This document shows positions 48,407-63,278 of a stretch of 64,000 nt of DNA, one piece after another. The notes below the pieces were generated by a model that worked only from the letters and a program-made list of their open reading frames with translations, was not told the origin of the DNA and searched no databases. The stretch is from an uncultured virus (IMG/VR IMGVR_UViG_3300008266_000011) (Duplodnaviria > Heunggongvirae > Uroviricota > Caudoviricetes), in IMG/VR virus record IMGVR_UViG_3300008266_000011. The stretch is one strand, 5' to 3'. Position 1 is the first letter of the stretch. Each line of letters begins with the position of its first letter. A program made the position numbers and the translations under genes.

Positions 48407-48736
48407 TCAATGCTGGACATGAATCTTGCCATCCTTCATCGTTACATTGAAGCCAGATTCTTGTAGAGCATCATGTACCCGTTTATTCTGGCCCTGAAGA
48501 TACTCAGCGCTAGGTCTAGTCAATGATTCTCCTTGCCAATGAACGATAGTAGTATTCTCATCAACAGGGGTATATACAACTCCAGAGGACAAACGAGATG
48601 GTCCTCTGCCACTTATCTTCCTACGGGGGCCCAATAACTTAGGGTTCAAGGCACGAGTCAACCTGACTTGGTTGTTTTTGATGCTTCTAGCCTTCTGGAG
48701 GGCATCACCATCAAACTGCTGGCTCAGGTTGCTCAT
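48407..48736 (-). CDS. Hypothetical tagged protein
   Basis: MSNLSQQF start. Confidence 0.6.
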   Translation of the reverse strand: MSNLSQQFDGDALQKARSIKNNQVRLTRALNPKLLGPRRKISGRGPSRLSSGVVYTPVDENTTIVHWQGESLTRPSAEYLQGQNKRVHDALQESGFNVTMKDGKIHVQH

Positions 48737-49041
48737 GTGGTCTCTCGTATTTTAGCCCGTATCTCATCTGGAGATACTTCTCCCTTAACTTGAAAGCCTT
48801 CACCAGATACATAATGACTACCCTCCCATTGCATTTGCTCTGAAGAGGGGTTAACCTCGTACACACGGGAGCCATGACCAGCAGCATGTAAGATATCGGT
48901 AGTTGCATGAGCCACTTTGTAGTCTGGCTCTTGCTCTTCATCCACCGCTTTTGAGTACTTAGGGTCAACCCAGTCTCCTGGCTTCAAAACTGCATTAGTC
49001 CCGTGGAATAACCTAACGCTGAGGTTGTCTGAGGCTGCCAT
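48733..49041 (-). CDS. ADP-ribosyltransferase-like (Arr-type fold), tagged
   Basis: MAASDNLSVRLFHGT...LKPGD.V.P...AHATT...VYEV.P. Confidence 0.6.
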   Translation of the reverse strand: MAASDNLSVRLFHGTNAVLKPGDWVDPKYSKAVDEEQEPDYKVAHATTDILHAAGHGSRVYEVNPSSEQMQWEGSHYVSGEGFQVKGEVSPDEIRAKIRETT

Positions 49042-49065
49042 TAGCCCAGTTTAGGCTACTGCCTA
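49042..49065 (-). promoter_or_regulatory. Leaderless promoter
   Basis: AGGCAGTAGCC-TAAACT-6 nt-ATG. Confidence 0.6.
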
Positions 49066-49119
49066 GCCAAAAACACCTCAACCATGTGTCTCACCTGGGG
49101 GTTCTGCTGCGGTTTTTCA

Positions 49120-49860
49120 CTTAATGGTGGGGGGTGTTGTTGTAATTATTATTTGTAACTCAACCACCTGACTACTAATCAGGTGGTAATTGTTCAACTC
49201 ATGCTTTGTTATCAGGTGTGACAAATAACTTGATGACAATAATGATGACGATAACAATAAATAACTTTGGCTACTGTATTTATAGCGACATGGCTTGTGC
49301 GGATACCACCAAGCCAACAGGTCACTTGGCTAGTTGTTATCACATAGTTATTAGTTATCTGATTCAGGTATCTATTGGGTTATGTAGTTACTTAATAGTT
49401 GTTACAACTATCTATCTCTATCAACTGACTATGACTAACTCAGTTGGTCTTTTCTCCTTGTAGCGACTATCTATCTCTGGCGGATTCTCTTCAGGTGATA
49501 GTTAGTTAGTAAGTAACTCTCTGGCGTGTAGTCGGACTTACTTACTTTATCCACACAGTAACTCGCTTGTTTGTGACAGCAGATGACTATTAGTTACTTA
49601 TTTAGGTATCTATGTGGCTATTACAAACTTCTTTATTTGTATTAGTTATTTATCTATTCTTCTATCTAACTTATTACATTCTTTGTATTAGTCATTACTG
49701 AAAAGAAAAACTCTTGGCGCGATTAGTTATGTGGGGGCGCACGCTCAAGGGGCTAAGTAACTTGGGTGGAACAGGTAGAAGACGAGTTGGGGGGGTGGGG
49801 GCTCTAGGCTCAAAAAGCCCTATAAACGCCTGTTATCGGGGGTGGCGAACTGAGTCGGTC
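49120..49860. other. AT-rich non-coding region between divergent modules (candidate genome end or origin)
   Basis: No credible ORF; many TAGTTA/TAACT/CTATCT words; G-runs at both edges; compositional boundary. Confidence 0.5.
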
Positions 49861-49863
49861 AGT

Positions 49864-49881
49864 TATGGCATAATTGGGGCA
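49864..49881 (+). promoter_or_regulatory. Putative promoter for the large RNA and early operon
   Basis: CATAAT at 49869-49874 then TGGGGC-A; same geometry as the leaderless promoters. Confidence 0.5.
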
Positions 49882-50525
49882 TGCCTTCGGGTGGCTCTTA
49901 GCGGAAAAGCCCCTAGCGCATTTGAACCTAGAAAATTACATAGTGACTAAGAAACCGCGATTTAGTTTCTCAATCGTAAAAACTGTTTAGACGATTCATA
50001 GAAAATGATTTTACTTTTCTTATGACGGCAGTTATTCAGTAATAGGTCATCAGACCGCGAACAATGTTCAACTGACGAAAAAGATTTACGCATTACGCGA
50101 CTAAATGATTGAAACCAATGGAACGCACGAAATGATTTCTATGCGAAGACCTTGTTATCCGCGATAACTAATTCAGTTGCTCAAACTTACCGCGCAACTA
50201 ATTACGAGCGATTAAAGATACAAGCGAGCAGAGCGCAATCCTAAATGTTTCTTTTAACGATAATGAAAATTATTGTGAATAGCGGTCTGACTTAGAAGAG
50301 AGTTACGGAAAGTTGAATAACTCAACTACTCATTACTTATGGATTGCTAACTATTAGTTAGTGCCGTCAGTAACCAATCTGAAATAAGAACAATGACAGT
50401 AGTGAGCAAGTGAGTTATACATACTTAGTAATTCCGCTATGTGTTTTAAGAACTTATGTTCTTACTGTGATTGTCATTCATACCGATTCAGCGAATGAGA
50501 TTGAATGACAATCGCGGTAGTCACA
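49881..50525 (+). ncRNA. Large, highly structured non-coding RNA (~640 nt; family unassigned)
   Basis: Seven 7-9-bp long-range complementary pairs, local hairpins, and an 18-bp stem with G-U pairs; no credible ORF. Confidence 0.75.
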
Positions 50526-50546
50526 TAACAGGAAAGAGGCAACACA

Positions 50547-50726
50547 ATGGCTACACAAAACACATACACAATCGGTGATTTATTCACCTCTACTAAATCG
50601 AGAGTTACAGGAATTATCGAAGAGATAGTTCCTATTAGTAACACAGTAGTAAAAGTCAGACTAAATGTTGAAGGCGAATCTCGCTGGACTACATGGACAC
50701 CTGATGTTGAACCTATAACTGAATAA
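50547..50726 (+). CDS. 59-aa hypothetical protein
   Basis: SD GAGG; MATQNTYTIGDLFTSTKSRVTGIIEEIVP... Confidence 0.65.
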   Translation: MATQNTYTIGDLFTSTKSRVTGIIEEIVPISNTVVKVRLNVEGESRWTTWTPDVEPITE

Positions 50727-50764
50727 CAACTACATACCGATACAAGAAAGAAAGAGGGCTCTTC

Positions 50765-50872
50765 ATGGGGCGAATTGTTATCTGCTCAATCTGTAAAAAA
50801 CAAATAGAAGTGCGTAGCACTTTCGCCTATGAAACTCTCAATCGTCACCTACAAACCCATAAGGAGAAATAA
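50765..50872 (+). CDS. 35-aa C2H2 zinc-finger micro-protein
   Basis: MGRIVICSICKKQIEVRSTFAYETLNRHLQTHKEK. Confidence 0.55.
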   Translation: MGRIVICSICKKQIEVRSTFAYETLNRHLQTHKEK

Positions 50873-50964
50873 TGAAAACCCAATGCGAAAGAGCCCCATT
50901 CGATAAAGAGAGTTGGTATTGCTTAACGCACAACACTCTTGAACCAAGAAGGGAAAGCAACTAA
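50872..50964 (+). CDS. 30-aa micro-protein
   Basis: SD AAGGAG; TAATG coupling at both ends. Confidence 0.5.
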   Translation: MKTQCERAPFDKESWYCLTHNTLEPRRESN

Positions 50965-51251
50965 TGAATCCAATGTATGAGTTCAACGATAGAGAGATTG
51001 GGCTATTGGACATGGCTCTTCAAGCAATCGCACACACAACTCAAATGGCTATCGAGCAAGGCGCAACGCCACCTGACGGATTAGTTGAAGCACTTGAATC
51101 AACTATTGAAAAACTTAATCAAGTTATCCAAAAGCGTTGTGATGATTTCAACTTGTTTGGAGAGATAGTCAAAGATTCGCTATCTGATGTAGAAGCAATT
51201 AGCGACAAGATAGTTAGCAATCCTGATTTACCGATTAACGAATACAACTAA
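50964..51251 (+). CDS. Acidic hypothetical protein
   Basis: ORF track. Confidence 0.6.
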   Translation: MNPMYEFNDREIGLLDMALQAIAHTTQMAIEQGATPPDGLVEALESTIEKLNQVIQKRCDDFNLFGEIVKDSLSDVEAISDKIVSNPDLPINEYN

Positions 51252-51298
51252 ATAACAACTAAATACCGAATACAAACTCACCTAGAGAAAGAAAATAA

Positions 51299-52657
51299 AT
51301 GACTACAACGCAATACGGCGTATTACTCGCCTCACAACCAACTGATGTATCACTTACACGACAAGTTGTTATCGCAAACATTGACAACAAACTTGTCTGC
51401 TACTCACGCCTTACCAATGGCAAGCAAGGAAAACAGAACGCATGGCAGGAAGGCAGATTCAATTACGATAGTGGCGAACCACTAATCGGTGAGCCTGTCG
51501 CAATTCCTGTATCACAGAATGATGTTGATGATTACAACGACAATGGATTCCCACGAGTTCTAATTCAGAAACTCATTCGTAAGCACTCACTATCTGACCA
51601 AACAATTACTGATGAAGCGATTACTGTCGCAGATTCAATTTGGGAAGCGTTCGATAATGACCCTTCATCACTTGCTACATACTTTGTTGATAATCGCGGT
51701 CAGCGTTCAACAAAAGGTTCTGTTGTATCTCACGATTCTGTTATTCAGATTCGTAGCGCAACAACACAAGTAGCACAATCACTTGTTGAAGAGCGTTCGC
51801 TCTATCTACCAAGTGTTACTGAGTTCTCTCACTACATCTCACGCAAGTTTGCTGGTGATGTTGATGAATTAACTATGTATCAGTTCGCACTTGCTAACAA
51901 GATGAATGTTCTTCTTTACGGAGAAGCAGGAACAGGTAAGACTTCCTCAACAATGTGGATTGCTTCTTTACTTGGACTTCCATACTTTGCGATTCCTTCT
52001 AACTCAGCACTTGATTACACACAGATTGTTGGCGGTTATGTTCCAAACGCTAATGGTTCTTTATCTTGGGTTGATGGCGCAGTTACTCGCTTAGTTCGTA
52101 ATGGCGGTGTTCTTCTTATCGGTGAAGTAAATACACTCGCTAAGAATGTTCAACAGTTCTTAATGCCATTACTTGATTACCGCCGTTCAATTACTGTCAT
52201 GGAGAATGGCAACGAAGTTATCAAGGCGCATGACAACTTGTTAATTATCGCTGACATGAATCCAAATTATCGTGGCACACAACTTCTTAACGAAGCATGG
52301 AAAGACCGCTTTGAGATTAAGTTGAACTTTGGTTATGACCGCGACATTGAGAAGAAGATTCTTAAATCTGAATCTCTATTGGAACTTGCTTATGGCATGA
52401 GGTCGCGTTCTCGTGGTGCTGATTCACATTACTCAGGTGATAGCAACACTATCTTTGATACTCCTGTATCAACTCGTATTCTCAAAACCTTTGAGAAGTT
52501 AGCAACTGAATTGTCATTCGAGTTTGCTTGTGAAGTATTCGCAAACAACTTTGATGAGAATGAGCGACCAGCAGTTAAGTTGTTGCTGGAAGCAAACACT
52601 TACAACCTTCAAGCAGATTTAGGTTTGCTTGAATCTGTTACCAATACTTCTGTTTAG
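51299..52657 (+). CDS. MoxR/CbbQ-NorQ-type AAA+ ATPase
   Basis: GEAGTGKT, W.DG, LLIGEVN (Walker B variant), MNP.YRGT..LN.A..DRF. Confidence 0.9.
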   Translation: MTTTQYGVLLASQPTDVSLTRQVVIANIDNKLVCYSRLTNGKQGKQNAWQEGRFNYDSGEPLIGEPVAIPVSQNDVDDYNDNGFPRVLIQKLIRKHSLSDQTITDEAITVADSIWEAFDNDPSSLATYFVDNRGQRSTKGSVVSHDSVIQIRSATTQVAQSLVEERSLYLPSVTEFSHYISRKFAGDVDELTMYQFALANKMNVLLYGEAGTGKTSSTMWIASLLGLPYFAIPSNSALDYTQIVGGYVPNANGSLSWVDGAVTRLVRNGGVLLIGEVNTLAKNVQQFLMPLLDYRRSITVMENGNEVIKAHDNLLIIADMNPNYRGTQLLNEAWKDRFEIKLNFGYDRDIEKKILKSESLLELAYGMRSRSRGADSHYSGDSNTIFDTPVSTRILKTFEKLATELSFEFACEVFANNFDENERPAVKLLLEANTYNLQADLGLLESVTNTSV

Positions 52658-52667
52658 AAAGGTAATC

Positions 52668-54617
52668 ATGTCACTACCCGAACTTACCGAGTTCGCTAAG
52701 TTAGCGAATGATTTATTGGTAGAAGAAGAGGAACGCAATCGCGCACGCATTGAGCGATTGACTCGTTACTTCTCTCGCGTTAATTCCGCACTTACATTCC
52801 GCGAAATTAAAGTGTCAGTTGAATCTTCTTTGATTGAAGCACCTGCTTGGTCGGGTGCTTCTGACATAACACTTAACTCACGACTCATTAACGACTTTAA
52901 CAATGGCGTTAGTGTTGCGAATCTTCGTGGTCTTAACTTCCACGAGTTATCGCACATTCTCTATACCCCACGACATGGTTCAGAGATTGTTACTTGGGTC
53001 AATGAGAAGGGTTATCGTAGAGCGTTTAATGCGTTAGAAGACCAGCGCATTGAAACTCTATTCACCGCACGCTTTCCTTCTACAACAGATTGGTTTGTTG
53101 TAACGATTCTGACTTACTTTGTTAATGACGAAAAACAATTCCAAACTTCTTATCCGTTGCTTCGTGGTCGTAAGTATCTGCCACTAGCAATTCGTGAGAA
53201 GTCGCGTGAGTTGTTTCCGTTCCAAGATAAGTTAGATGAGATTTGTGAAATCGTTGATGAATACAGAACTCTTATCTATCCAATGGATACAGAGATTGGA
53301 AAAGTTCTTGTTGAGCGATTCCATAATCTAATTGACTCACTTCCTCAGCATGGTGACGGAGAAGGTAAGAGTGGTAATGGTGAATCCAAAGAAGGAGAAT
53401 CCAATACTGTTGATTACAACGACCTTGCTGATTGGGAAAAAGAACTGTTAAAAGAAGCGACACCTGCTAATCCAAATAGCGGTAAGCCGACTACAACAAT
53501 TCTTAATTGCCCATTCGGTCACGAAACACGACCAACAGAAGGCATTGAGCCAACGATTCTGTCACGACCACAGACCGCTAAGAATCAGAAGCGTGATAGC
53601 GAACGCGCCAAGCAATTAGATAAGACGATTGCTGATGAAGCAAAACCACAATCACAATCACAATCTAATTCGCAACCACAACCACAAACAGACTCACCTT
53701 CACAAGAAGGTGGTAACTCTGCTGGCAATACAGGCTCTCTTATCGAGATACTAAAGACCGCGATAACTGATGTTATGGATAAAGAAAGTGTTGCTAAAGA
53801 AGTCACCGAGATTATTCGTGTGATGAAGGGGCTTCCTTCTTTATCTAGTAACAATCTTGAAGAGCCTGAACTTGCTCACTACACAAAACAAAATCCTGAC
53901 AGTAAAACACTTTCTTCTTCTCTCTCTTTCGCTCGTGAGTTAGAGAGATTGAAAGCAAAGTTTGACCCTGCTTGGGATAAGTATGAATCGCGTGGCAAAT
54001 TAAATGCTTCACGATTCATTCGTGGTGATGATTTAGATACTGTATTTGATACATGGAATGAAGGTAGAGAAGACGCTACTGAAATTGAGTGCGTAATCAT
54101 TCTCGACAATTCAGGTTCAATGTCAGGTCGCAAATCAACTCAGGCTTATCGTGCTATGTATGCCATTAAGTATGCGCTCGATAAAATTGGTGCTAACTGT
54201 TCTGTTATCACTTTCAATCATGAAACCAATGTTCTTTATCGGGCAACTGATAGAGCAAACAATGTCATTCGTGATAGTGGCGCAACAGGTGGCACTAATG
54301 CTGAATACGCAGTTCGTTACGCAACTAAGTTGCTCGCTGAATCAGATAAACCTGTCAAACTGTTCTACGCCATTACTGACGGCGAATGGTCTGATAGTGA
54401 AGTGTGTGATGAAGAGATAAAGAAGTTATCTCGTGCTGGTGTTCTCACCGCGTTCGCATACATACCTGATAGTCACGAAGAAATGATTGGATTAACTCAT
54501 GAGAAAGCGCATTACTCAGATGTTGCTTCTGTGATTAACAATCCATTCGATTTAGTTGGTATGGCTCGCACAATCGTTCGCAACGCGATTGCTCGCAGAG
54601 TTACTTCCAACTCATAG
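52668..54617 (+). CDS. vWA/MIDAS protein with N-terminal HExxH domain (CobT/NorD-like partner)
   Basis: FHELSH, NALED.RIE, DNSGSM, GGT, ITDG; start refined to ATG 52668. Confidence 0.85.
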   Translation: MSLPELTEFAKLANDLLVEEEERNRARIERLTRYFSRVNSALTFREIKVSVESSLIEAPAWSGASDITLNSRLINDFNNGVSVANLRGLNFHELSHILYTPRHGSEIVTWVNEKGYRRAFNALEDQRIETLFTARFPSTTDWFVVTILTYFVNDEKQFQTSYPLLRGRKYLPLAIREKSRELFPFQDKLDEICEIVDEYRTLIYPMDTEIGKVLVERFHNLIDSLPQHGDGEGKSGNGESKEGESNTVDYNDLADWEKELLKEATPANPNSGKPTTTILNCPFGHETRPTEGIEPTILSRPQTAKNQKRDSERAKQLDKTIADEAKPQSQSQSNSQPQPQTDSPSQEGGNSAGNTGSLIEILKTAITDVMDKESVAKEVTEIIRVMKGLPSLSSNNLEEPELAHYTKQNPDSKTLSSSLSFARELERLKAKFDPAWDKYESRGKLNASRFIRGDDLDTVFDTWNEGREDATEIECVIILDNSGSMSGRKSTQAYRAMYAIKYALDKIGANCSVITFNHETNVLYRATDRANNVIRDSGATGGTNAEYAVRYATKLLAESDKPVKLFYAITDGEWSDSEVCDEEIKKLSRAGVLTAFAYIPDSHEEMIGLTHEKAHYSDVASVINNPFDLVGMARTIVRNAIARRVTSNS

Positions 54618-54618
54618 A

Positions 54619-54676
54619 TGTCACTCTCTAGGTGACAAGTGTGGGGCGTGTAGTTACGAGATTCGCACGCCCCACA
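54619..54676 (+). other. Intergenic tandem hairpins
   Basis: TGTCAC/GTGACA and TGTGGGGCGTG/CACGCCCCACA. Confidence 0.55.
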
Positions 54677-54725
54677 TTCCAATTACAAATAATCCAAATA
54701 CAAATACAAACAATTAGGAGAAATC

Positions 54726-55337
54726 ATGAAGTTCAATGAATTACAAGTTGGTGTTGAATACGCAGTTATTCCGTCATGGCAGTATTCATCACGCGATAAG
54801 AAAGACCCACAACGAGTTCATAAGGCAGATGTTGAGAAAGCAACTCTCGTCAATCTAACTAAATACGAATACAAGGTGTATCGCTCTGACATTCAGAATC
54901 ACCCTGAGTTCGTTAAAGCACCACAGGGCTCTCGCTCTGTTGGTTATCTAGTGACCGCTAAGAACGGCACACAAGATGTCTATTGGCTCGCACGCCCACA
55001 AGACATTGTTGAGTGTTGGTCTGTTCTTGAACCGCGTTGGGCAGAAGAGGAACGCAAACAAAATGAAGAGCGTGAGCAAGCAAAGAGAGAACAAGAGCAA
55101 CGCGACCTAGAACGCAAGATGATTCAAGAGCAACGCGCTAGATTAGAGAAGTCAGTTCTTGATTCGTTTCAATCCATTCTTGGTGGTCGCGGTAACTCAA
55201 ACAATCTAAAGTTTGATACACGCTCTATTCGTGACCAACAAGGTAATTACAAAGAAATAAACATTGTTCAACTCGACATTGAGTTGGCGCAAATCCTTAT
55301 CGAGAAAGTATTAGAAGCAAGAGAGGTAATGGGCTAA
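54726..55337 (+). CDS. Hypothetical protein
   Basis: SD AGGAG; ORF track. Confidence 0.65.
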   Translation: MKFNELQVGVEYAVIPSWQYSSRDKKDPQRVHKADVEKATLVNLTKYEYKVYRSDIQNHPEFVKAPQGSRSVGYLVTAKNGTQDVYWLARPQDIVECWSVLEPRWAEEERKQNEEREQAKREQEQRDLERKMIQEQRARLEKSVLDSFQSILGGRGNSNNLKFDTRSIRDQQGNYKEINIVQLDIELAQILIEKVLEAREVMG

Positions 55338-55960
55338 TGACAACTGAACTACAAGTTGAAGAAACTCAATCTTCTGTTAATACAAATGTTCCTAATGAAT
55401 CTTTTTATTTAGACAGATTCAAGAGGTGCGTTGAAGACAGAAACTATGTCAATGGTCGTGTGATTGACGAAGACTATAACTGTGAAATCTACAAAGGTTT
55501 CGCAATAGTTACTTGGAAGCAGGAATGGCAACAACCAAATAACAAAACTCGAATCTCATTCAATAGTTATGTGTGGGAAGTTGGCGGTGTCTTTGATGAA
55601 CTGATACATCTCGCTTGGCTTGGTCAGGGTGTTATTAGCACAGGTCACAACTCAACTACCTATGAACAAGCAATTAAGAAGATGAGAAAGAGAGTTGATT
55701 TACTATCTGAGGTCTATGCTCACAAGGCAGAACTTCGAGCCCTCTCTATTTCTTACAGAGGTCGTATTGCTAACGCAAACCCTCTATACAACGCACTAAT
55801 CGGTGATGTAGTTGCTATTCGTGCGTTTGGTAGAACAAGACTTGGAAAGATTGTGAAGTTAGTTGGTAGTCGGTTTGTTGTTGCTTACATGACTCCAAGT
55901 AACGCCCAAGATGTTCATTACAAAACACTTCCCCTATCTCAAATCTATCCAAAGGATTAA
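55337..55960 (+). CDS. Hypothetical protein
   Basis: TAATG coupling. Confidence 0.65.
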   Translation: MTTELQVEETQSSVNTNVPNESFYLDRFKRCVEDRNYVNGRVIDEDYNCEIYKGFAIVTWKQEWQQPNNKTRISFNSYVWEVGGVFDELIHLAWLGQGVISTGHNSTTYEQAIKKMRKRVDLLSEVYAHKAELRALSISYRGRIANANPLYNALIGDVVAIRAFGRTRLGKIVKLVGSRFVVAYMTPSNAQDVHYKTLPLSQIYPKD

Positions 55961-55963
55961 ATC

Positions 55964-56143
55964 ATGGCTACCAAATTAACTCGTAGAGGTTGGATTGTTC
56001 TCGTAATAATTCCAGCAATTCTTTTAACAATACTTATGTCATGGGCTACTCGTGATGTTTGTTATGTAGGCGATAAACCTTACGCAAACGCTTTCGGTTA
56101 TGGCTCATGCCAAAAGTTAATAGATGAGGCGGTGAATAAATGA
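55964..56143 (+). CDS. Small membrane protein
   Basis: MATKLTRRGWIVLVIIPAILLTILMSW... Confidence 0.6.
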   Translation: MATKLTRRGWIVLVIIPAILLTILMSWATRDVCYVGDKPYANAFGYGSCQKLIDEAVNK

Positions 56144-56280
56144 AAAAGTTAGTAATTCAGTTTGAGTTGCGTAATCATGACCTAGAAGAGTTTGAGGGCT
56201 CTTTAGAAGGTTGGATTGCCGATTTCATGGATTCAGAACTTGCTGATGATTTAACTTACACAATCTTGGAAAGGAAATAA
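56140..56280 (+). CDS. Acidic 46-aa protein
   Basis: MKKLVIQFELRNHDLEEFEGSLEGWIADFMDSELADDLTYTILERK. Confidence 0.5.
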   Translation: MKKLVIQFELRNHDLEEFEGSLEGWIADFMDSELADDLTYTILERK

Positions 56281-56282
56281 TC

Positions 56283-56444
56283 ATGGGTTATGTAGAAGCA
56301 ATCAGAGTGACACCTGACCAATTAACTAACTGTGATTCATGCCAGCAAGACGGACTAACAACTTCGGGTAAGTATGTAAGTGATTCATACGGCGTTCCTG
56401 TGTTGTGGTTCTGTTTTAATTGCGTGAATAAAGTTCTCAACTAG
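56283..56444 (+). CDS. Zinc-ribbon micro-protein
   Basis: CDSC...WFCFNC; SD AAGGA. Confidence 0.55.
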   Translation: MGYVEAIRVTPDQLTNCDSCQQDGLTTSGKYVSDSYGVPVLWFCFNCVNKVLN

Positions 56445-56452
56445 GAGAAATA

Positions 56453-57004
56453 ATGAAAACAAAAGTTTGTAGTCATTGTAAAACTAAAAAACCATTGACT
56501 TCATTCAATAAGAAGCGTTCAACTCGTGGCGTTGTCGGTAATACACAACCCTATTGCCGACCATGCCAAAGCGAGCGACAGAGGGCTTACTATCGAAAGA
56601 ATACAAACGCTCAATTACAAAGAATGTATCGGAATAGAAGAAGGCGTAAGAAAGAGATTCATGCTTTCTTAGCGACTTACTTTGCTAAACATACTTGCGT
56701 TGATTGCGCCAAAAAGAAACTTCGCATTAAGAAGTTACTTAAAGGCAAAGTTCCTAATTCCACAATTAACCAAATAGTTAAGATTACTGATTCCGACATT
56801 CGTAGTCTGACCTTTGACCACCTACACACTAGGGGCGATAAGGAATACACAATCGCTGACATGATTCGTGACATTCAACCATTACACAAGATTAAAAAGG
56901 AAATACAAAAGTGTGTAGTGCGTTGTCATAACTGTCACGACATTATTACTGTGAAGCGTGCCAAGAGTTGGAGATACCACGCACACAAACAATTAACTAA
57001 ATAA
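56453..57004 (+). CDS. HNH endonuclease-like protein with N-terminal zinc finger
   Basis: CSHC..KP...F...YCRPC; CVDC...FDH...KC.VRCHNCH. Confidence 0.8.
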   Translation: MKTKVCSHCKTKKPLTSFNKKRSTRGVVGNTQPYCRPCQSERQRAYYRKNTNAQLQRMYRNRRRRKKEIHAFLATYFAKHTCVDCAKKKLRIKKLLKGKVPNSTINQIVKITDSDIRSLTFDHLHTRGDKEYTIADMIRDIQPLHKIKKEIQKCVVRCHNCHDIITVKRAKSWRYHAHKQLTK

Positions 57005-57012
57005 ACAAATGT

Positions 57013-57159
57013 ATCTAGTGGGGGTCAAAGTTAATGACCTTTGTAGGTTTCTTCATTCCCTACAAACTATTCAAGACCAAAGAGCAACCATGACCCTATG
57101 AGGGGCTTCATGAACTCCTTTCGACCTTGTTAGGCGAGTTGTATCTGCCCCCACTAGAT
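57013..57159 (+). ncRNA. Putative multibranch structured RNA element
   Basis: 12-bp closing stem enclosing three hairpins. Confidence 0.5.
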
Positions 57160-57184
57160 TCCTAAAACAAAGAAAGGAAAATAA

Positions 57185-57796
57185 ATGCCTAATTGGTGCT
57201 ATAACAATCTTTACATTACTTCCGAAGATAACAAACAATTAGAAAAAGTTATTCAAGGTATTACAAACAATTCAGAACAATTATTCGACTTCAATCGAAT
57301 TATTGAAATGCCCGAAGAACTCCAAAATACAAAATCACCCAACAATGTTAATCCTGATGAAATGAAAGCAAAGTATGGATTTTCTGATTGGTATGATTGG
57401 AGAAGTCGTAATTGGGGAACTAAGTGGAACGCAAAAGATGTTGAATTAAATCTTGATACGCCACAACAGATTCACATTCGATTCAGCACCGCATGGTCAC
57501 CGCCTATGCCTGTCATTACAAAGATTGCCGAGATGTTTCCATTCACTTACATAACTTTGGATTGGGAAGAAGAGAGTGGCTTCTACGGCAAAACAGAGTA
57601 TGAGAAAGGCATAAGAGTTTCTGACATTGAAGGCGAAATAGATTGTGTCTATCGTTGGGAAAATTGGGGCGATTGTATTCCTGATTGTGAAGATTGTGGC
57701 GAGTGCGATTGTGAAGTTTGTAATTGCTCTAACCGCACCCAACAAACACTTTGTAATGATTGTAATGAAGGAAAACATGGAGAGGAAAAAGAATGA
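57185..57796 (+). CDS. DUF1281/YubB-like ferredoxin-fold protein
   Basis: MPNWC.N, FDFN.II.MP, WYDWR..NWGTKW, F.TAWSPP. Confidence 0.8.
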   Translation: MPNWCYNNLYITSEDNKQLEKVIQGITNNSEQLFDFNRIIEMPEELQNTKSPNNVNPDEMKAKYGFSDWYDWRSRNWGTKWNAKDVELNLDTPQQIHIRFSTAWSPPMPVITKIAEMFPFTYITLDWEEESGFYGKTEYEKGIRVSDIEGEIDCVYRWENWGDCIPDCEDCGECDCEVCNCSNRTQQTLCNDCNEGKHGEEKE

Positions 57797-58122
57797 CTTA
57801 CATTAAACGATTGCCCTCAGCACAACCCAAGAGAGCGACTAAGAATCCTGTATTCAATCTCAAAGTGCCAACACCGCGTGACATGGATAAAACTCCATGC
57901 CAAAAGAATGACCCTGAGATTTGGTTTCCTAGTGGAGAGAATCTTCCCGAAGATACTAAAAAGATTAAGTTGGCAAAATCATTATGCGCTCAATGCCACG
58001 AATCAACTAAGTGTCTTTCTTTCGCAGTAACGAATCGTGTTCGTTATGGGATTTGGGGTGGCACTACTGAAATTGAGCGACAAAGTTTAATTCGCAAAGC
58101 AGAAAGGAGTAAGGACAAATGA
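57793..58122 (+). CDS. whiB: WhiB-family transcription regulator
   Basis: C...DPEIWFP...AK.LC..C.....CL...YGIWGGTTE.ER. Confidence 0.92.
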   Translation: MTYIKRLPSAQPKRATKNPVFNLKVPTPRDMDKTPCQKNDPEIWFPSGENLPEDTKKIKLAKSLCAQCHESTKCLSFAVTNRVRYGIWGGTTEIERQSLIRKAERSKDK

Positions 58123-58295
58123 CACCTACCTATTGGGTAACAACCGATACAACAACCTTCTATTCACTAAAGATAGAAGCCGATTCTGAAACTCATGCCG
58201 AAGAGATTGCGGAAATGACTCCGCTTGAAAATTGGCATGAAGACAACACCGAAGGTTCGCACTTCTACGAAGTAGAGGAAATAAATAATGGTTAA
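58119..58295 (+). CDS. Acidic 58-aa protein
   Basis: MTPTYWVTTDTTTFYSLKIEADSETHAEEIAE... Confidence 0.55.
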   Translation: MTPTYWVTTDTTTFYSLKIEADSETHAEEIAEMTPLENWHEDNTEGSHFYEVEEINNG

Positions 58296-58731
58296 TACAT
58301 TCCTGCCTTATCCCGACTTTGTTAAGTCGGCTCAGGCTCTTGATTACAAGCGACTTGGTAAGCAACGAGTAGAGGCGTGGCAGATACTACGCGCCTTGCG
58401 TGGCGAAACTAAGGGTTGGCGTAATCACCCTGCCACTAACTTGTGGCGCGGTCATGAGAAGTTACTTTGTGAATACGGAATCGCAATCTGTGATGAATGG
58501 ATTGCTCGTGGTTACAAAGATTCAATGCGTGAAAGATTTGTTGCGCTTCATTCAACTTATCCTGATTGTGAATTACCGAAATGGTTTGGCAATACAAACT
58601 TTCACAATTCACATCAGAGCAATCTCAATCGCAAAGATTCAACTTACTATCACTTCAACATCACAAATGATTTACCTTATTTGTGGTTCGACAACACAAC
58701 AGAACAACTCTATGAAAAGGAAACAAAGTGA
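58288..58731 (+). CDS. Pyrimidine-dimer DNA glycosylase-like protein (DenV/MSMEG_6728 family)
   Basis: TFLPY.DF..SA..LD.KRLGKQRVE..QIL, W.NHPA..W.G, H.SH.SNL.RK. Confidence 0.85.
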   Translation: MVNTFLPYPDFVKSAQALDYKRLGKQRVEAWQILRALRGETKGWRNHPATNLWRGHEKLLCEYGIAICDEWIARGYKDSMRERFVALHSTYPDCELPKWFGNTNFHNSHQSNLNRKDSTYYHFNITNDLPYLWFDNTTEQLYEKETK

Positions 58732-58955
58732 GTGGGCAATCAGAATGGCTAACAAACGACCAAGTAAGCGAGTTGTTAGGGTTGAAGTATTCAACTCTTT
58801 ACACTTATCGAAAAAGAAACACCCTTCCCGAACCCGATACATACATAGGAAGAACTCCTGTATGGAATCGAAAGACAATCGAAGAATGGAATCAGAATCG
58901 AAAACAAACTGAAATTGAATTAGTAGATGAATCTGATTCAATAACTAACACATAG
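58728..58955 (+). CDS. AlpA/excisionase-like HTH protein
   Basis: WLT..QVSELLGL...TLY.Y.....LPEPD..IG..P.W....I.EW. Confidence 0.75.
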   Translation: MSGQSEWLTNDQVSELLGLKYSTLYTYRKRNTLPEPDTYIGRTPVWNRKTIEEWNQNRKQTEIELVDESDSITNT

Positions 58956-58996
58956 CGGAACTACAACTCTCTTCTAAGTTACTTAGCCACTATGTG

Positions 58997-59030
58997 AGCC
59001 CTCATTCTCAATCGGGAATGGGGGCTTTTT
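58997..59030 (+). terminator. Rho-independent terminator
   Basis: AGCCCTCATTCTC-aatc-GGGAATGGGGGCT followed by TTTT. Confidence 0.75.
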
Positions 59031-59042
59031 CATGCCCGCTAA

Positions 59043-59136
59043 GTTACTCGTCAGTAGAGGGGGCTTCCAATTTGACCTAGATGTTACTCGTGGGTAACTT
59101 ACCCGTCAGTAGGTTACTCGTCAGTAGAGGGGGCTT
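59043..59136 (+). repeat. Direct repeats upstream of the recombinase
   Basis: 24-bp GTTACTCGTCAGTAGAGGGGGCTT at 59043 and 59113; variants at 59083 and 59099. Confidence 0.85.
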
Positions 59137-59138
59137 TC

Positions 59139-60416
59139 ATGGCGTATGTGGTCAGGCGTGGCGCACGCTATACAGGCTATTACCGCAAGGGCTCTAAACG
59201 CCTTTCTGCTGGCACTTGGGGCTCTTTCAAGGAAGCGCAGTATCAAGCCCTACGCATGGAGAATGGGGGCTCTAAGGGGCTTTCAAGGGCTAATTTGAGC
59301 CTTTCTGAGTATGCCGAAAAATGGCTTAGAACCGCCGAATTACTGCCTATCACAAAGAAGGGGTATGAATCCCTATGGAAGCGGTATCTAGCCCCTCAAA
59401 TCGGCTCTAAAGGCGTATTAGAGGTATCAACGCTAGAGATAAGGGAAATCTTGGGCGAATTGAAGGCTCAGGGGGTCGGTGGGGCAACGCTGGCTCAAAT
59501 CAAGGCGTGTCTAGGCTCTCTGTATAAATGGCTCATAGAGGGTCAAATCACCCAAATCAACCCGACTCATGGCATAAAGGTCAAAACAGGCAAATCGGAC
59601 ATCACAGGAATCCTAGAGCCTGACGATTTCAAGAAGATAGTTATTCACCTTCCTTCAGAGGGCGCAAAGTTACTTGCGAAGTTCCTAGTTGCTTCAGGAG
59701 CGAGATTCGGTGAAGCGAGTGAGATTCGATTAAAAGATTTTAATTTCAATACAAAAGAAGTTTTTATACAAAGGCGAGTAAGCGAACTAGGCAAGAAGCG
59801 TAACAATGGCAACAGATTCCTAGTCGTAGATGGCACTAAGTCGGGCTACAAGCGTGTAGTCGTGTTACCGGAAGCCCTAATACAAGAGATTCAGGCGTAT
59901 GTCAGGCTAAATCGCATAGGGAAAGAAGACCTAGTGTTTGAGAAAAGCAAAGTCATACCAAAAGATAAACTAAAGGATTCTCGTGGCATAGCAAAGTCTT
60001 CACGACCATTCGTGAAAGACGGAAAACTGTTCCAACATGGCACGCTCAGGGCTTACGCAAGTGGGTCTTGTAGGTGTGATGAGTGTAAAGCGATAGTTCG
60101 AGAGTATCGAAGGTCGCAAAGAGCAAAGTCATACCAAAAGGGTGAGGTCATACTTAAAGAACCGAGCCACTTGCCACGAGATACATGGAGAACCATCTGG
60201 AACAAAGCAATAGCCAAATCAGGAATGGGTTGGAGTCCAAGAACTCACGACTTACGGCATGCGAACGCAACGCAGTTGTTAAAGAACGGCGTTGATGTCC
60301 ATGAAGTAAAAGAGCGATTGGGTCATCAATCCATCAAAACTACCGAACGCTATCTCCACCGCGTTCGTCACCAGAAATCAAAGGCGAGTGAAGTTGTCAA
60401 TGATTTTCTGGGTTAG
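59139..60416 (+). CDS. int: Tyrosine recombinase / integrase
   Basis: SGARFGE (R), TKSG (K), HDLRH, LGHQS, ERYLH catalytic set; N-terminal SAM-like domain. Confidence 0.92.
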   Translation: MAYVVRRGARYTGYYRKGSKRLSAGTWGSFKEAQYQALRMENGGSKGLSRANLSLSEYAEKWLRTAELLPITKKGYESLWKRYLAPQIGSKGVLEVSTLEIREILGELKAQGVGGATLAQIKACLGSLYKWLIEGQITQINPTHGIKVKTGKSDITGILEPDDFKKIVIHLPSEGAKLLAKFLVASGARFGEASEIRLKDFNFNTKEVFIQRRVSELGKKRNNGNRFLVVDGTKSGYKRVVVLPEALIQEIQAYVRLNRIGKEDLVFEKSKVIPKDKLKDSRGIAKSSRPFVKDGKLFQHGTLRAYASGSCRCDECKAIVREYRRSQRAKSYQKGEVILKEPSHLPRDTWRTIWNKAIAKSGMGWSPRTHDLRHANATQLLKNGVDVHEVKERLGHQSIKTTERYLHRVRHQKSKASEVVNDFLG

Positions 60417-63119: not shown

Positions 63120-63278
63120 TTCCCCTACCATTTCATCATATTGTCAAATACCCTCAAAAGGAAGGCTTATTGTGAAGGCACGAAACCTATCATGCACTTG
63201 TTAACTTCGTTTAATACTTTTGGCAATCTTTACAGGTTGAACCATGTTTCATAGCCTGATAACTTCTGTTATCAGATA

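What the first reader, a model, noticed from the sequence alone, without database searches (positions are those of the whole stretch)
49881..50525. ~640-nt ornate non-coding RNA at the head of the early operon
Seen, exact reverse complements: 49899-49906 TAGCGGAA / 50432-50439; 49943-49949 GTGACTA / 50518-50524; 49954-49962 ACCGCGATT / 50510-50518; 50023-50030 TGACGGCA / 50362-50369; 50030-50038 AGTTATTCA / 50314-50322; 50050-50058 TCAGACCGC / 50282-50290 (extendable via 50061-50070 / 50264-50276); 50235-50241 GCAATCC / 50341-50347, which crosses the previous helix (pseudoknot). Several partners lie in loops of local hairpins (AGAAAC/GTTTCT; AGTTGA/TCAACT). A CATAAT -10 box precedes it and there is no credible ORF. 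Known: ROOL and GOLLD are phage-associated large ornate RNAs of this size class. Inference: a member of, or a new family parallel to, these RNAs, expressed first in infection.
Basis: partly seen in the sequence, partly recalled or inferred. Interest (0 to 1): 0.88.

Follow-up and report, generated by a model that had tools for sequence, protein, structure and literature searches.

The report
Large phage leader RNA pairing trailer
A folded, untranslated RNA of about 650 bases heads an operon of an uncultured lake phage, fits no described RNA family, and three of its core stretches match a short sequence at the operon's far end, which points to an unusual RNA-to-RNA control.

Summary
All seven exact reverse complements sit at the stated coordinates, the region has no ORF over 43 aa, and a CATAAT box precedes it. 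The region is a plus-strand structured RNA of about 650 nt (about 49881-50530). It is conserved upstream of the first small ORF of the rightward operon in 42 of 42 related phage loci that hold enough upstream DNA. On 26 sequences, 74 consensus pairs are 93% paired and 46 of them show compensatory changes. The RNA is not ROOL or GOLLD and matches nothing in Rfam. RNA-library contigs from three studies cover 49900-50312. Three core segments of the leader are complementary to one 49-nt stretch (58947-58995) just before the operon's terminator, 8.4 kb downstream. This pairing co-varies across clades. The scan reported this family and this pairing before on other DNA (e1-6072196, e1-6029817/8), and I re-tested it here. 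Best reading: a new large leader RNA that works as one half of a leader-trailer RNA pair. What it regulates is unknown.

The parts
49866..49874 (+). Promoter-like extended -10 (TGG CATAAT). The predicted transcript start is about 49881.
   Evidence: Sequence. A TGn-plus-hexamer box sits at the homologous place by regex in 24 of 28 relatives (L148 none; L009, L152 and L011 ambiguous). RNA-library contigs of two studies begin at 49900 and 49902, which is only a weak hint.
49881..49921 (+). 5' hairpin domain of the window-type leader. It is short here and about 170-200 nt in most other lineages.
   Evidence: RNAalifold on 3 window-type sequences gives 13 pairs, 4 of them with changes on both sides. 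In 19 sequences of the other lineages one 6-pair helix of the longer 5' domain has 4 pairs with compensatory changes.
49938..49951 (+). Segment S3 (ACATAGTGACTAAG), the universal junction motif. Its CTAAG (49947-51) pairs with CTTAG 50291-95. The whole segment is complementary to trailer 58982-58995 with 1 mismatch.
   Evidence: The motif was found by HMM in 26 of 28 sequences. Helix 1. Trailer match.
49955..49958 (+). 5' strand (CCGC) of the long-range helix with GCGG 50282-50285.
   Evidence: helix 2: 100% of cells paired, and 3 of 4 pairs carry compensatory changes (CG/AU/UA). Window coordinates.
49960..50250 (+). Lineage-specific middle domain. It is about 290 nt here and 100-160 nt in distant lineages, and it holds a second, duplicated copy of the junction motif at 50041-50062.
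   Evidence: Alignments. Within the 4 window-type sequences its local hairpins keep pairing through compensatory changes. This contributes to the 22 of 87 predicted pairs with compensatory changes, which also include the 5' hairpin domain.
50257..50276 (+). Hairpin with an invariant GAAA (GNRA) tetraloop at 50265-68.
   Evidence: helix 4: 8 pairs, 4 with compensatory changes. The loop letters are invariant in 26 of 26 sequences.
50282..50304 (+). 3' strand of the long-range helices (GCGG 50282-85, CTTAG 50291-95) together with segment S2 (50290-50304, ACTTAGAAGAGAGTT), which is complementary to trailer 58965-58979.
50300..50434 (+). Core of the 3' domain. Helix 50300-14/50422-34 has a conserved GGA(A/G)A bulge. 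Nested in it are 50334-37/50398-402, ATTG 50343-46/CAAT 50391-94, 50347-49/50359-61 and 50366-70/50379-84.
   Evidence: helices 5-11 (29 pairs, 22 with compensatory changes). Coordinates.
50432..50445 (+). Segment S1 (TTCCGCTATGTGTT). It is complementary to trailer 58947-58960. Its TATGTG (50438-43) pairs inside the leader with CACATA 50522-27.
   Evidence: Helix 12 is nearly invariant, so it is neither supported nor refuted by covariation.
50462..50520 (+). Long terminal hairpin.
   Evidence: helix 13: 17 pairs, 12 with compensatory changes, 98% of cells paired.
50531..50549 (+). Shine-Dalgarno-like GGAAAGAGG and the ATG (50547) of the first small ORF (59 aa), 20 nt after the last leader helix.
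   Evidence: In the 28 relatives examined, the first ORF of 30 aa or more that is listed begins within about 100 nt after the conserved ACATA.
58947..58995 (+). Trailer ('anti-leader'). T1 58947-60, T2 58965-79 and T3 58982-95 are complementary to S1, S2 and S3 in antiparallel order.
   Evidence: Each leader segment has exactly one reverse-complement match in the 64-kb window. Co-variation. Cofold.
58996..59030 (+). Intrinsic terminator of the operon: a 13-bp G+C-rich hairpin followed by TTTTT. The integrase gene starts at 59139.
   Evidence: MFE structure, z -5.1. An equivalent hairpin plus T-run is visible before int in all 16 genomes printed.

Best explanation
The region encodes a plus-strand, untranslated, multi-domain structured RNA of about 650 nt (about 49881-50530). 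It is the 5' leader of the 9-kb rightward operon (small ORFs, CobS-like AAA+ ATPase, VWA protein, HNH and others) of an uncultured, integrase-bearing freshwater myophage. It belongs to an RNA family that is not in Rfam. Shown here: a conserved 3' domain of about 280 nt, a universal junction motif, long-range helices that close the molecule, and variable peripheral domains. Also shown: three core segments (S3 49938-51, S2 50290-304, S1 50432-45) are complementary to one contiguous 49-nt trailer (58947-58995) that ends one base before the operon's intrinsic terminator. These segments are partly unpaired linkers and partly strands of the core helices, and the complementarity co-varies between phage clades. 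Inferred: the leader first folds on its own. When the trailer has been transcribed, either as the 3' end of the same 9-kb message or as a released terminator-bearing small RNA, it invades the leader core through the unpaired linkers and replaces three core helices with about 45 intermolecular pairs. That would couple completion or abundance of the operon transcript to the leader's conformation, and so to translation, stability or processing at the operon's 5' end. Equally possible, it could modulate termination or read-through in front of the integrase gene. Which output is controlled is not known.
For: Conservation: the 3' domain is found by nhmmer in 42 of 47 loci fished with the neighbouring CobS-like protein. 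The other 5 are cut less than 760 nt upstream. A motif scan of viral contigs that is independent of CobS gave 24 hits, of which 22 are true homologues. Structure: 46 pairs, 28 compensatory, on 27 sequences. On 26 sequences, 74 pairs have 93.2% of cells paired, against 77.6% in shuffles (0 of 500) and 31-46% when partners are slid. 46 pairs have changes on both sides, and the covariation score is 0.533 against 0.235. Strand: 223 G-U cells against 37 A-C cells. Non-coding: no ORF over 43 aa, and indels are not multiples of three. Expression: RNA-library contigs at 99% identity or more from three studies lie on 49900-50312, and a 604-nt RNA contig comes from a relative. Leader-trailer pairing: 15-nt and 14-nt perfect complements and one 14-nt complement with one mismatch, each unique in the 64-kb window. 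Homologous three-block complementarity with different letters occurs in relatives, for example S1 TTCGCTTATGTGTTTTC in L002, TGATTCTGCTTATGTA in L017 and ATCTACTTATGTGTTT in L021. The summed duplex energy is -67.8 kcal/mol for cognate pairs, -46.1 +/- 10.1 between clades and -36.0 for a control stretch. For 13 of 16 leaders no trailer of another clade binds as well. Cofolding the full leader with the trailer gives 48 intermolecular pairs in exactly these three blocks and a net gain of -22.5 kcal/mol. Six relatives give -19 to -47, and foreign trailers on the window leader give -7 to -13.5. An integrase orthologue with such a trailer and terminator in front of it is present in 15 of 15 related records searched.
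Against: No strand-specific reads, ends or joints are available, so the transcript start, the 3' end, a single 9-kb transcript and a released trailer RNA are all unproven. The consensus structure was predicted on the same alignment on which it was counted, and the sequences are related (about 8 clades), which inflates the shuffle control. The slid-partner control is the fairer one. The leader-trailer complementarity is almost all Watson-Crick and is strand-neutral: -67.8 for the plus strand against -67.6 for the minus strand, with plus better in only 7 of 16. It therefore does not by itself exclude a DNA-level inverted repeat. For the two most divergent genomes (L024, L209) the cognate trailer is not better than foreign ones (10 and 7 of 15 bind as well). 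The helix TATGTG/CACATA next to the ribosome site never varies, so it is unsupported. The paired blocks end 86 nt before the Shine-Dalgarno sequence, so a simple masking of the start site is not evident.
Confidence: 0.6

Rival explanations
1. A stand-alone ornate non-coding RNA of the ROOL/GOLLD kind. It would be made from its own promoter (or cut from the operon's 5' end), accumulate as a stable particle and act in trans, possibly as an RNA-only assembly. The trailer match would merely titrate or tune it.
For: Its size and complexity far exceed those of known cis-regulators. It has an invariant GAAA tetraloop, long-range closing helices, and a conserved 3' half with a variable 5' half, as the GOLLD paper describes for GOLLD. 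The DNA is better conserved than the flanking small proteins. RNA-library contigs lie on it in three studies.
Against: No terminator or conserved 3' end separates it from the first ORF, which starts 14-100 nt downstream in every lineage. There is no covariance-model similarity to ROOL or GOLLD. There are no tRNA genes in the window. The co-varying trailer complementarity needs a reason of its own.
Confidence: 0.2
2. A conventional cis-regulatory leader (a riboswitch-like, protein-binding or antitermination element) that senses a ligand or a phage or host protein and sets expression of the downstream operon. On this reading the trailer complementarity is secondary.
For: It always sits directly upstream of the first small ORF with a Shine-Dalgarno sequence next to the last helix. 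Distant lineages have an alternative hairpin (GAATACAT..ATGTATTC) that uses the same ACATA letters as the terminal clamp. This resembles an expression platform.
Against: No Rfam family matches. Its 530-670 nt with several variable domains is far larger than known aptamer-platform units. No intrinsic terminator lies within or just after it.
Confidence: 0.12
3. A DNA-level element. The leader and trailer blocks would be inverted DNA repeats used by the adjacent tyrosine recombinase (for example to invert the 8.6-kb segment), or the region would be part of a replication origin or operator field.
For: The leader-trailer complementarity is strand-neutral and the trailer lies 150 nt from an integrase gene. 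The left half of the same intergenic gap (49047-49445) does look like a field of protein-binding DNA sites with almost no covariation.
Against: The three blocks are contiguous in the trailer but lie 340 and 130 nt apart in the leader, unlike recombination sites. Inside the leader, pairing tolerates G-U six times more often than A-C, and dozens of local helices covary, which DNA sites do not require. RNA-library contigs cover the region. No contig showed a strand-changing joint.
Confidence: 0.05

Closest known systems
GOLLD RNA (Rfam RF02032)
   Same: It is a phage-encoded, very large structured RNA first seen in lake metagenomes. [quoted passage not shown] Its function is unknown.
   Different: No covariance-model match: 0 of 5 related records at E up to 10, and nothing in the window at E up to 10. 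This RNA is not next to tRNAs in the window. It is fixed at the 5' end of an operon and has a co-varying partner sequence 8.4 kb away. Assembly into cages is unknown.
ROOL RNA (Rfam RF03087)
   Same: It is of the same size class (the model has 574 positions), occurs in phages and prophages, has multiple long-range helices, and has no known protein partner.
   Different: No match in 0 of 4 records. The tool's control genomes did not ring either, so that call is weak. There is also no match in cmscan of the window or of 8 relatives. The genomic setting differs.
5'UTR-3'UTR pairing within one mRNA: icaR of Staphylococcus aureus (PMC3868564, abstract read) and hbs of Bacillus subtilis (PMC5737220, abstract read)
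   Same: Complementary stretches lie at the two ends of one transcription unit. The hbs interaction is 14 bp, like each block here. The proposed effects are on translation or RNase access.
   Different: Those are single short contacts on monocistronic mRNAs of about 1 kb or less, and the icaR contact covers the Shine-Dalgarno sequence. Here three blocks (about 45 pairs) span about 9 kb. They target the core of a 650-nt folded leader and stop 86 nt before the Shine-Dalgarno sequence.
3'UTR-derived autoregulatory small RNAs OppZ and CarZ of Vibrio cholerae (PMC7398697, abstract read)
   Same: An RNA made from the operon's 3' end, terminator included, base-pairs with the operon's own transcript for feedback. 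The trailer here folds as a hairpin followed by a terminator, like such small RNAs.
   Different: OppZ and CarZ block translation of an operon gene, and OppZ also triggers Rho-dependent termination. Here the target is a structured leader, not a start site. Release of a small RNA has not been shown.
P4 CI RNA immunity (passage in PMC4825925)
   Same: In a temperate phage, an untranslated leader-derived RNA pairs with complementary sites elsewhere in the same operon, and the outcome is transcription termination. Here the target adjoins a terminator in front of int.
   Different: CI RNA is small and its sites (seqA, seqC) lie close by in the leader. Here the leader is 650 nt, the partner is 8.4 kb away, and no effect on termination has been shown.

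Membership tests
ROOL (RF03087) | Scores at or above the family's covariance-model gathering score (99.1 bits) | tested here: not met
   No match in the window at gathering score or at E up to 10 over 48900-50700. 0 of 4 related records matched at E up to 10, but the control genomes did not ring either.
ROOL / GOLLD | Encoded in phages or prophages, often beside tRNA islands (passages) | tested here: inconclusive
   Phage-encoded: yes. tRNAs: none in the 64-kb window. Four tRNA genes lie about 1.2 kb upstream in one distant relative, L164.
GOLLD (RF02032) | Scores at or above the gathering score (150 bits) | tested here: not met
   0 of 5 related records matched at E up to 10, while weak sub-threshold hits appeared in 5 control genomes.
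GOLLD (RF02032) | Universally conserved 3' region with a less conserved 5' region | tested here: met
   Alignments. This is a resemblance in layout only, not homology.
ROOL / GOLLD / OLE | Homo-oligomeric RNA-only assembly | not testable with these tools
   This needs cryo-EM or SEC-MALS on the transcript.
5'UTR-3'UTR interaction (icaR, hbs type) | Complementary sequences in the leader and the trailer of one transcription unit, kept by compensatory change | tested here: met
   13 of 16 genomes prefer their own trailer over those of other clades.
5'UTR-3'UTR interaction (icaR type) | Pairing covers the Shine-Dalgarno region of the regulated gene | tested here: not met
   The paired blocks end at 50445 and the Shine-Dalgarno sequence is at 50531-39.
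5'UTR-3'UTR interaction | Both partners lie on one RNA molecule | not testable with these tools
   All genes from 50547 to 58912 are on the plus strand, and only weak terminator-like sites lie between them. No transcript data are available.
3'UTR-derived autoregulatory sRNA (OppZ/CarZ type) | A stable small RNA comprising the operon's last nucleotides and its terminator | not testable with these tools
   The trailer folds as a hairpin plus terminator.
3'UTR-derived autoregulatory sRNA (OppZ/CarZ type) | Targets a translation start region within its own operon | tested here: not met
   The only matches of the trailer blocks in the window are the three leader segments.
Riboswitch or other curated cis-regulatory RNA | Match to a curated Rfam model | tested here: not met

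The most novel reading that the evidence does not exclude
A previously undescribed kind of phage gene control. A 650-nt self-folding leader RNA would act as a conformational timer or sensor whose effector is another piece of RNA written 8.4 kb further along the same operon. Only when RNA polymerase reaches the operon's end does a tripartite anti-leader appear. It unzips the leader's core by strand invasion, switching the 5' end of the message (or read-through into the integrase gene) from an early to a late state. The large ornate fold would exist to hold three distant segments side by side as a composite docking site.
Probability: 0.3. Interest if true: 0.92.

Novelty: new variant of a known kind. 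Interest (0 to 1): 0.8.

Why it matters
Very few large, highly structured bacterial or phage RNAs are known (ROOL, GOLLD, OLE, raiA, HEARO), and the function of most is still open. This one comes with something the others lack, an obvious and evolutionarily verified partner sequence. That turns 'what does it do?' into concrete experiments: bind, mutate, compensate. If the leader-trailer contact forms, it would be the longest-range and most elaborate 5'-3' RNA contact described for a bacterial-type operon. It would also be a natural example of an RNA switch triggered by strand invasion from a distal part of the same transcription unit. The family is confined to abundant, uncultured freshwater phages that are probably temperate, so it may bear on how these phages time early genes or integrase expression.

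Tried and rejected
1. Rfam. The whole window at gathering score gave 0 matches. The region 48900-50700 at E up to 10 gave four chance-level hits. Eight relatives at E up to 1 gave only tRNAs and junk away from the leader.
2. I recalled a wrong accession for GOLLD. RF01998 proved to be a group II intron domain and gave only sub-threshold noise. I repeated the search with RF02032.
3. blastn of the intergenic gap against 50,697 phage records found no match. The nearest held virus record, G001, does not hold the region, and the window's own assembly is not held.
4. A 14-mer scan of viral contigs gave 120 stretches. Of the 80 fetched, only 3 were real, and those lay on contigs already held. It was too unspecific.
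5. A degenerate 27-mer scan of 185,579 species genomes gave 33 hits, about the number I had estimated by hand for chance, and 0 extended beyond the pattern by nhmmer. So no cellular or prophage copy and no host were found this way.
6. Coding potential of the left block 49047-49445. All six frames match relatives about equally, with frame switches, and only 2 of 41 RNAalifold pairs covary. I reject it as part of the RNA.
7. Parts without RNA-contig cover. The flanking genes and 50313-50546 have no contigs in runs X15-X17. The depth of 93 on one 220-nt contig of X18 is likewise not used.
8. Strand of the leader-trailer duplex. The test was neutral.
9. A promoter for an independent trailer RNA. 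TGATTCAAT at 58932-40 looks like the leader's box, but it is not kept in L002, L004 or the distant clades, so this is undecided.
10. The trailer hairpin pairing T1 with T3 is not obviously kept in clade B by eye.
11. Scripts stopped on my own regex errors and were corrected.
12. Pfam and PHROGs gave nothing for the small ORFs next to the RNA.
13. Literature searches found no description of this RNA. Fremin et al. 2023 (PMC10690425, passages read) list viral candidate structures of only 29-151 nt. Their supplementary models were not examined, so a fragment of this RNA could be among them.
Full report
**Setting.** The window is phage DNA. It carries a tail sheath, major head protein, portal and large terminase on the minus strand. 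On the plus strand it carries a CobS-like AAA+ ATPase (51299-52657), a VWA/CobT-like protein, an HNH nuclease and an integrase (59139-60416). A ribonucleotide reductase gene (61107-63131) lies on the minus strand beyond it. A related record is a complete 97-kb genome with direct terminal repeats. The finding lies in a 1.5-kb ORF-free gap (49042-50546) between the leftward and rightward gene blocks. No cultured phage holds similar DNA. The CobS-like protein's best cultured relatives are actinobacteriophage proteins at under 60% identity. DNA runs that hold 84-89% of the sampled words are lake and freshwater metagenomes from four studies other than the possible source.

**The observation.** The count of exact inverted repeats exceeds dinucleotide shuffles: 28 against 13.4 +/- 3.6 at 7 nt or more, with 0 of 60 shuffles as high. 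The plus strand folds 4.2 sd better than shuffles, and the minus strand 3.5 sd better. The CATAAT box (49869-74) is preceded by TGG, so it reads as an extended -10. No ORF over 43 aa lies inside the region.

**Conservation.**
- I fished relatives with the CobS-like protein, which gave 24 viral and 23 metagenomic loci. L145 is the window's own contig.
- An nhmmer profile of the 3' part found a plus-strand homologue upstream of the gene in 42 of 47 loci. The 5 without are cut less than 760 nt upstream.
- There were 32 distinct sequences. I dropped 4 near-duplicates (L008, L156, L161, L023), leaving 28.
- A scan with a degenerate hairpin motif, independent of CobS, gave 24 hits in viral contigs. 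22 were true homologues, 8 of them on contigs not held before. 18 of the 22 show the CobS-like gene downstream, 3 are cut, and L209 shows none within 2.3 kb.
- The same motif found no true copy in one genome of each of 185,579 prokaryote species: 33 hits, 0 real.
- The non-coding DNA is better kept than the flanking small proteins.

**Anatomy.**
- A promoter-like box: TGGCATAAT here, and TGGTTCAAT, TGGTTTAAT, TGCCATACT or TGTTACTAT in other lineages. It sits at the homologous place in 24 of 28 sequences.
- A 5' domain that is short here (49881-49921) and 170-200 nt in most lineages.
- A universal junction motif, ACATAGTGACTAAG (49938-51).
- A lineage-specific middle domain (49960-50250). In the window-type phages it holds a duplicated copy of the junction motif.
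- A strongly conserved 3' domain (50255-50530).
- 14-20 nt further on in 15 of 28 sequences, and within 100 nt in all, the Shine-Dalgarno sequence and start of a small ORF.

**Structure.** RNAalifold on 27 sequences of the 3' domain gave 46 pairs, 28 with compensatory changes. On 26 sequences running from the junction motif to the end (A3; L020 and L022 were left out because the motif profile did not find them), the 74-pair consensus was counted with controls.

| Measure | Consensus | Column shuffles | Partners slid 1-3 columns |
|---|---|---|---|
| Cells paired | 93.2% | 77.6% (0 of 500 as high) | 31-46% |
| Pairs with changes on both sides | 46 | 35 | 16-19 |
| Covariation score | 0.533 | 0.235 | at most 0.116 |

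The structure was predicted on the same alignment and the sequences are related, so the slid control is the more honest one. G-U cells outnumber A-C cells 223 to 37, which assigns the fold to the plus strand.

The best-supported helices, in window coordinates, are:
- the GAAA-tetraloop hairpin 50257-76;
- 50300-14/50422-34, with a conserved GGA(A/G)A bulge;
- ATTG 50343-46/CAAT 50391-94;
- 50366-70/50379-84;
- the 17-pair terminal hairpin 50462-80/50502-20;
- the long-range pair of helices CTAAG 49947-51/CTTAG 50291-95 and CCGC 49955-58/GCGG 50282-85. The second is 100% paired, with CG, AU and UA alternatives.

The 5' domain of other lineages has at least one covarying helix, with 4 of 6 pairs compensatory. 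The window-type 5' hairpin and middle domain keep their hairpins through compensatory changes among 3-4 sequences. The whole roughly 650 nt therefore behaves as one folded RNA.

- R6 pairs 50282-90 with the duplicated motif copy. Among the three other sequences that hold that 5' arm it fails in L002 (4 of 8 pairs) and is weakened in L148 and L149 (6 and 7 of 9). The homologous, covarying partner is 49955-58.
- R3's 3' arm is the 3' strand of the terminal hairpin, whose changes are compensated locally and not by R3's 5' arm.
- R7's ATTG is taken by the covarying ATTG/CAAT helix.
- R2 is not kept.
- R1's TTC is part of helix 50300-14/50422-34.
- R4 and R5 can be judged in only four sequences, where they keep 7-9 of 8-9 pairs. 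They overlap covarying helices and remain open as lineage-specific tertiary or alternative pairings.

**Known families.** Nothing in Rfam 15 matches the window, the region at E up to 10, or eight relatives. GOLLD (RF02032) matched 0 of 5 related records and ROOL (RF03087) matched 0 of 4 at E up to 10. The ROOL call had no ringing control, so it is weak. My first GOLLD query used a wrongly recalled accession. The layout of a conserved 3' half and a variable 5' half resembles what the cryo-EM paper says of GOLLD, but that is a resemblance and not membership. Full-text searches found no description of this RNA. The large viral screen of Fremin et al. reports structures of only 29-151 nt, and I did not examine its supplements.

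**Expression.** Of 6 runs on record as RNA I laid 4. Contigs at 99% identity or more from three different studies lie on 49900-50312. Two of them begin at 49900 and 49902, 20 nt after the predicted start. A fourth run holds a 604-nt contig of a relative's leader. Contigs show neither strand nor ends, and DNA carry-over cannot be excluded. I make nothing of the uncovered flanks.

**The trailer.** Earlier notes of this scan on other genomes (e1-6072196, e1-6072206; e1-6029818, e1-6029817) reported the same family and a leader-trailer match, and I tested that here.
- In the window, 58947-58960 is the perfect complement of 50432-45 (S1). 58965-58979 is the perfect complement of 50290-304 (S2). 58982-58995 is the complement of 49938-51 (S3) with one mismatch. 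Each leader segment has exactly one such match in the 64 kb.
- The three trailer blocks are contiguous, lie in antiparallel order, and end one base before a 13-bp terminator hairpin followed by a T-run. The integrase gene starts 110 nt later.
- All 15 related records searched have the integrase orthologue. All 16 genomes show an equivalent stretch and terminator in front of it.
- The complementary letters differ between clades yet stay complementary, indels included.
- The summed duplex energy of S1-S3 with the cognate trailer averages -67.8 kcal/mol. With trailers of other clades it is -46.1 +/- 10.1, and with a control stretch of the same genome it is -36.0.
- For 13 of 16 leaders no foreign-clade trailer binds as well. 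For L017, 1 of 15 does, for L209 7 of 15 do, and for L024 10 of 15 do.
- Cofolding the 666-nt leader with the 57-nt trailer predicts 48 intermolecular pairs in exactly the three blocks, with a net gain of -22.5 kcal/mol after paying for the lost internal helices. Six relatives give -19 to -47, and foreign trailers on the window leader give -7 to -13.5.
- The duplexes are nearly all Watson-Crick and therefore strand-neutral. The RNA reading rests on the leader's own plus-strand fold, the shared operon strand, the adjoining terminator, and the dispersed-versus-contiguous geometry.

**How it probably works.** S1-S3 are each half helix strand and half conserved unpaired linker (ACATAGTGA, AAGA, CGC). 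The linkers would serve as toeholds. Full pairing would displace CTAAG/CTTAG, 50300-14/50422-34 and TATGTG/CACATA, which are the helices that tie the domains together and sit next to the ribosome site. I therefore read the leader as a two-state RNA whose second state is imposed by the operon's own 3' end, in cis or as a released small RNA. The output may be translation or stability at the 5' end, processing by a double-strand RNase, or termination and read-through before int. This is inference. The steps that are shown are conservation, fold, strand, presence in RNA libraries, and co-varying complementarity.

**Verdict.** This is a real, new family of large structured phage RNA. The leader-trailer pairing, already noted by this scan on other DNA and confirmed here independently, makes it unusually tractable and interesting.

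Noticed in passing
window 49047-49445: A second conserved non-coding block in the same gap. It is kept in nearly all relatives at 70-76% identity, but equally in all six frames and with almost no covariation (2 of 41 pairs). It holds an invariant palindrome CACCTGACTACTAATCAGGTG (49164-84), GGCTACTG at 49054 and 49269, a tandem TGATGACAA/TGATGACGA (49231-54) and TTGTTATCAGGTG (49206-18). It looks like a field of protein-binding sites (operators or an origin), not RNA.
   Followed up: partly
window 49830-49862 and the homologous places in L010, L017, L021, L157: Just upstream of the leader's -10 box lies the TGTTATC(A/G)GG motif again, followed by an inverted repeat. Its two half-sites change together between lineages (TGTCG..CGACA, TGTAC..GTACA, TGTCC..GGACA). 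This looks like an operator for a dimeric regulator that co-evolves with its site.
   Followed up: no
window 59034-59135: Between the operon terminator and the integrase start, GTTACTCGTCAGTAG(AGGGGGCTT) occurs twice (59043, 59113). Relatives carry GTTACT..AGTAAC palindromes there, and an AAGTTACTTC motif directly precedes the trailer in the distant clades. These are possible integrase-arm or regulator sites.
   Followed up: no
L148:197-412 and an RNA contig of run X18: One lineage carries an insertion of about 190 nt inside the leader's junction motif, with the letters ATAG duplicated at both ends. The RNA contig shows that this longer form occurs in an RNA library.
   Followed up: no
window 50445-50463: A small optional hairpin (AAGAAC..GTTCTT) of 18-19 nt is present in 4 of the 10 close relatives (window, L001, L006, L007) and absent from the other 22 sequences of alignment A3.
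   Followed up: no
window 48733-49041 (minus strand): The first gene of the leftward block (102 aa) has a weak, sub-threshold Pfam hit to Arr-ms rifampin ADP-ribosyltransferase (E 0.003, 18.1 bits against a cut-off of 25). It may be an early ADP-ribosylating enzyme.
   Followed up: no
L164:123-582: Four tRNA genes lie on the opposite strand about 1.2 kb upstream of the leader in the most divergent lineage. The window itself has no tRNA gene.
   Followed up: no
window 50041-50062: The window-type phages hold a second, diverged copy of the junction motif (TAGGTCATCAGACCGCGAAC). Its partner, if any, is unknown. In the window it can pair perfectly with 50282-90, but not in L002.
   Followed up: partly
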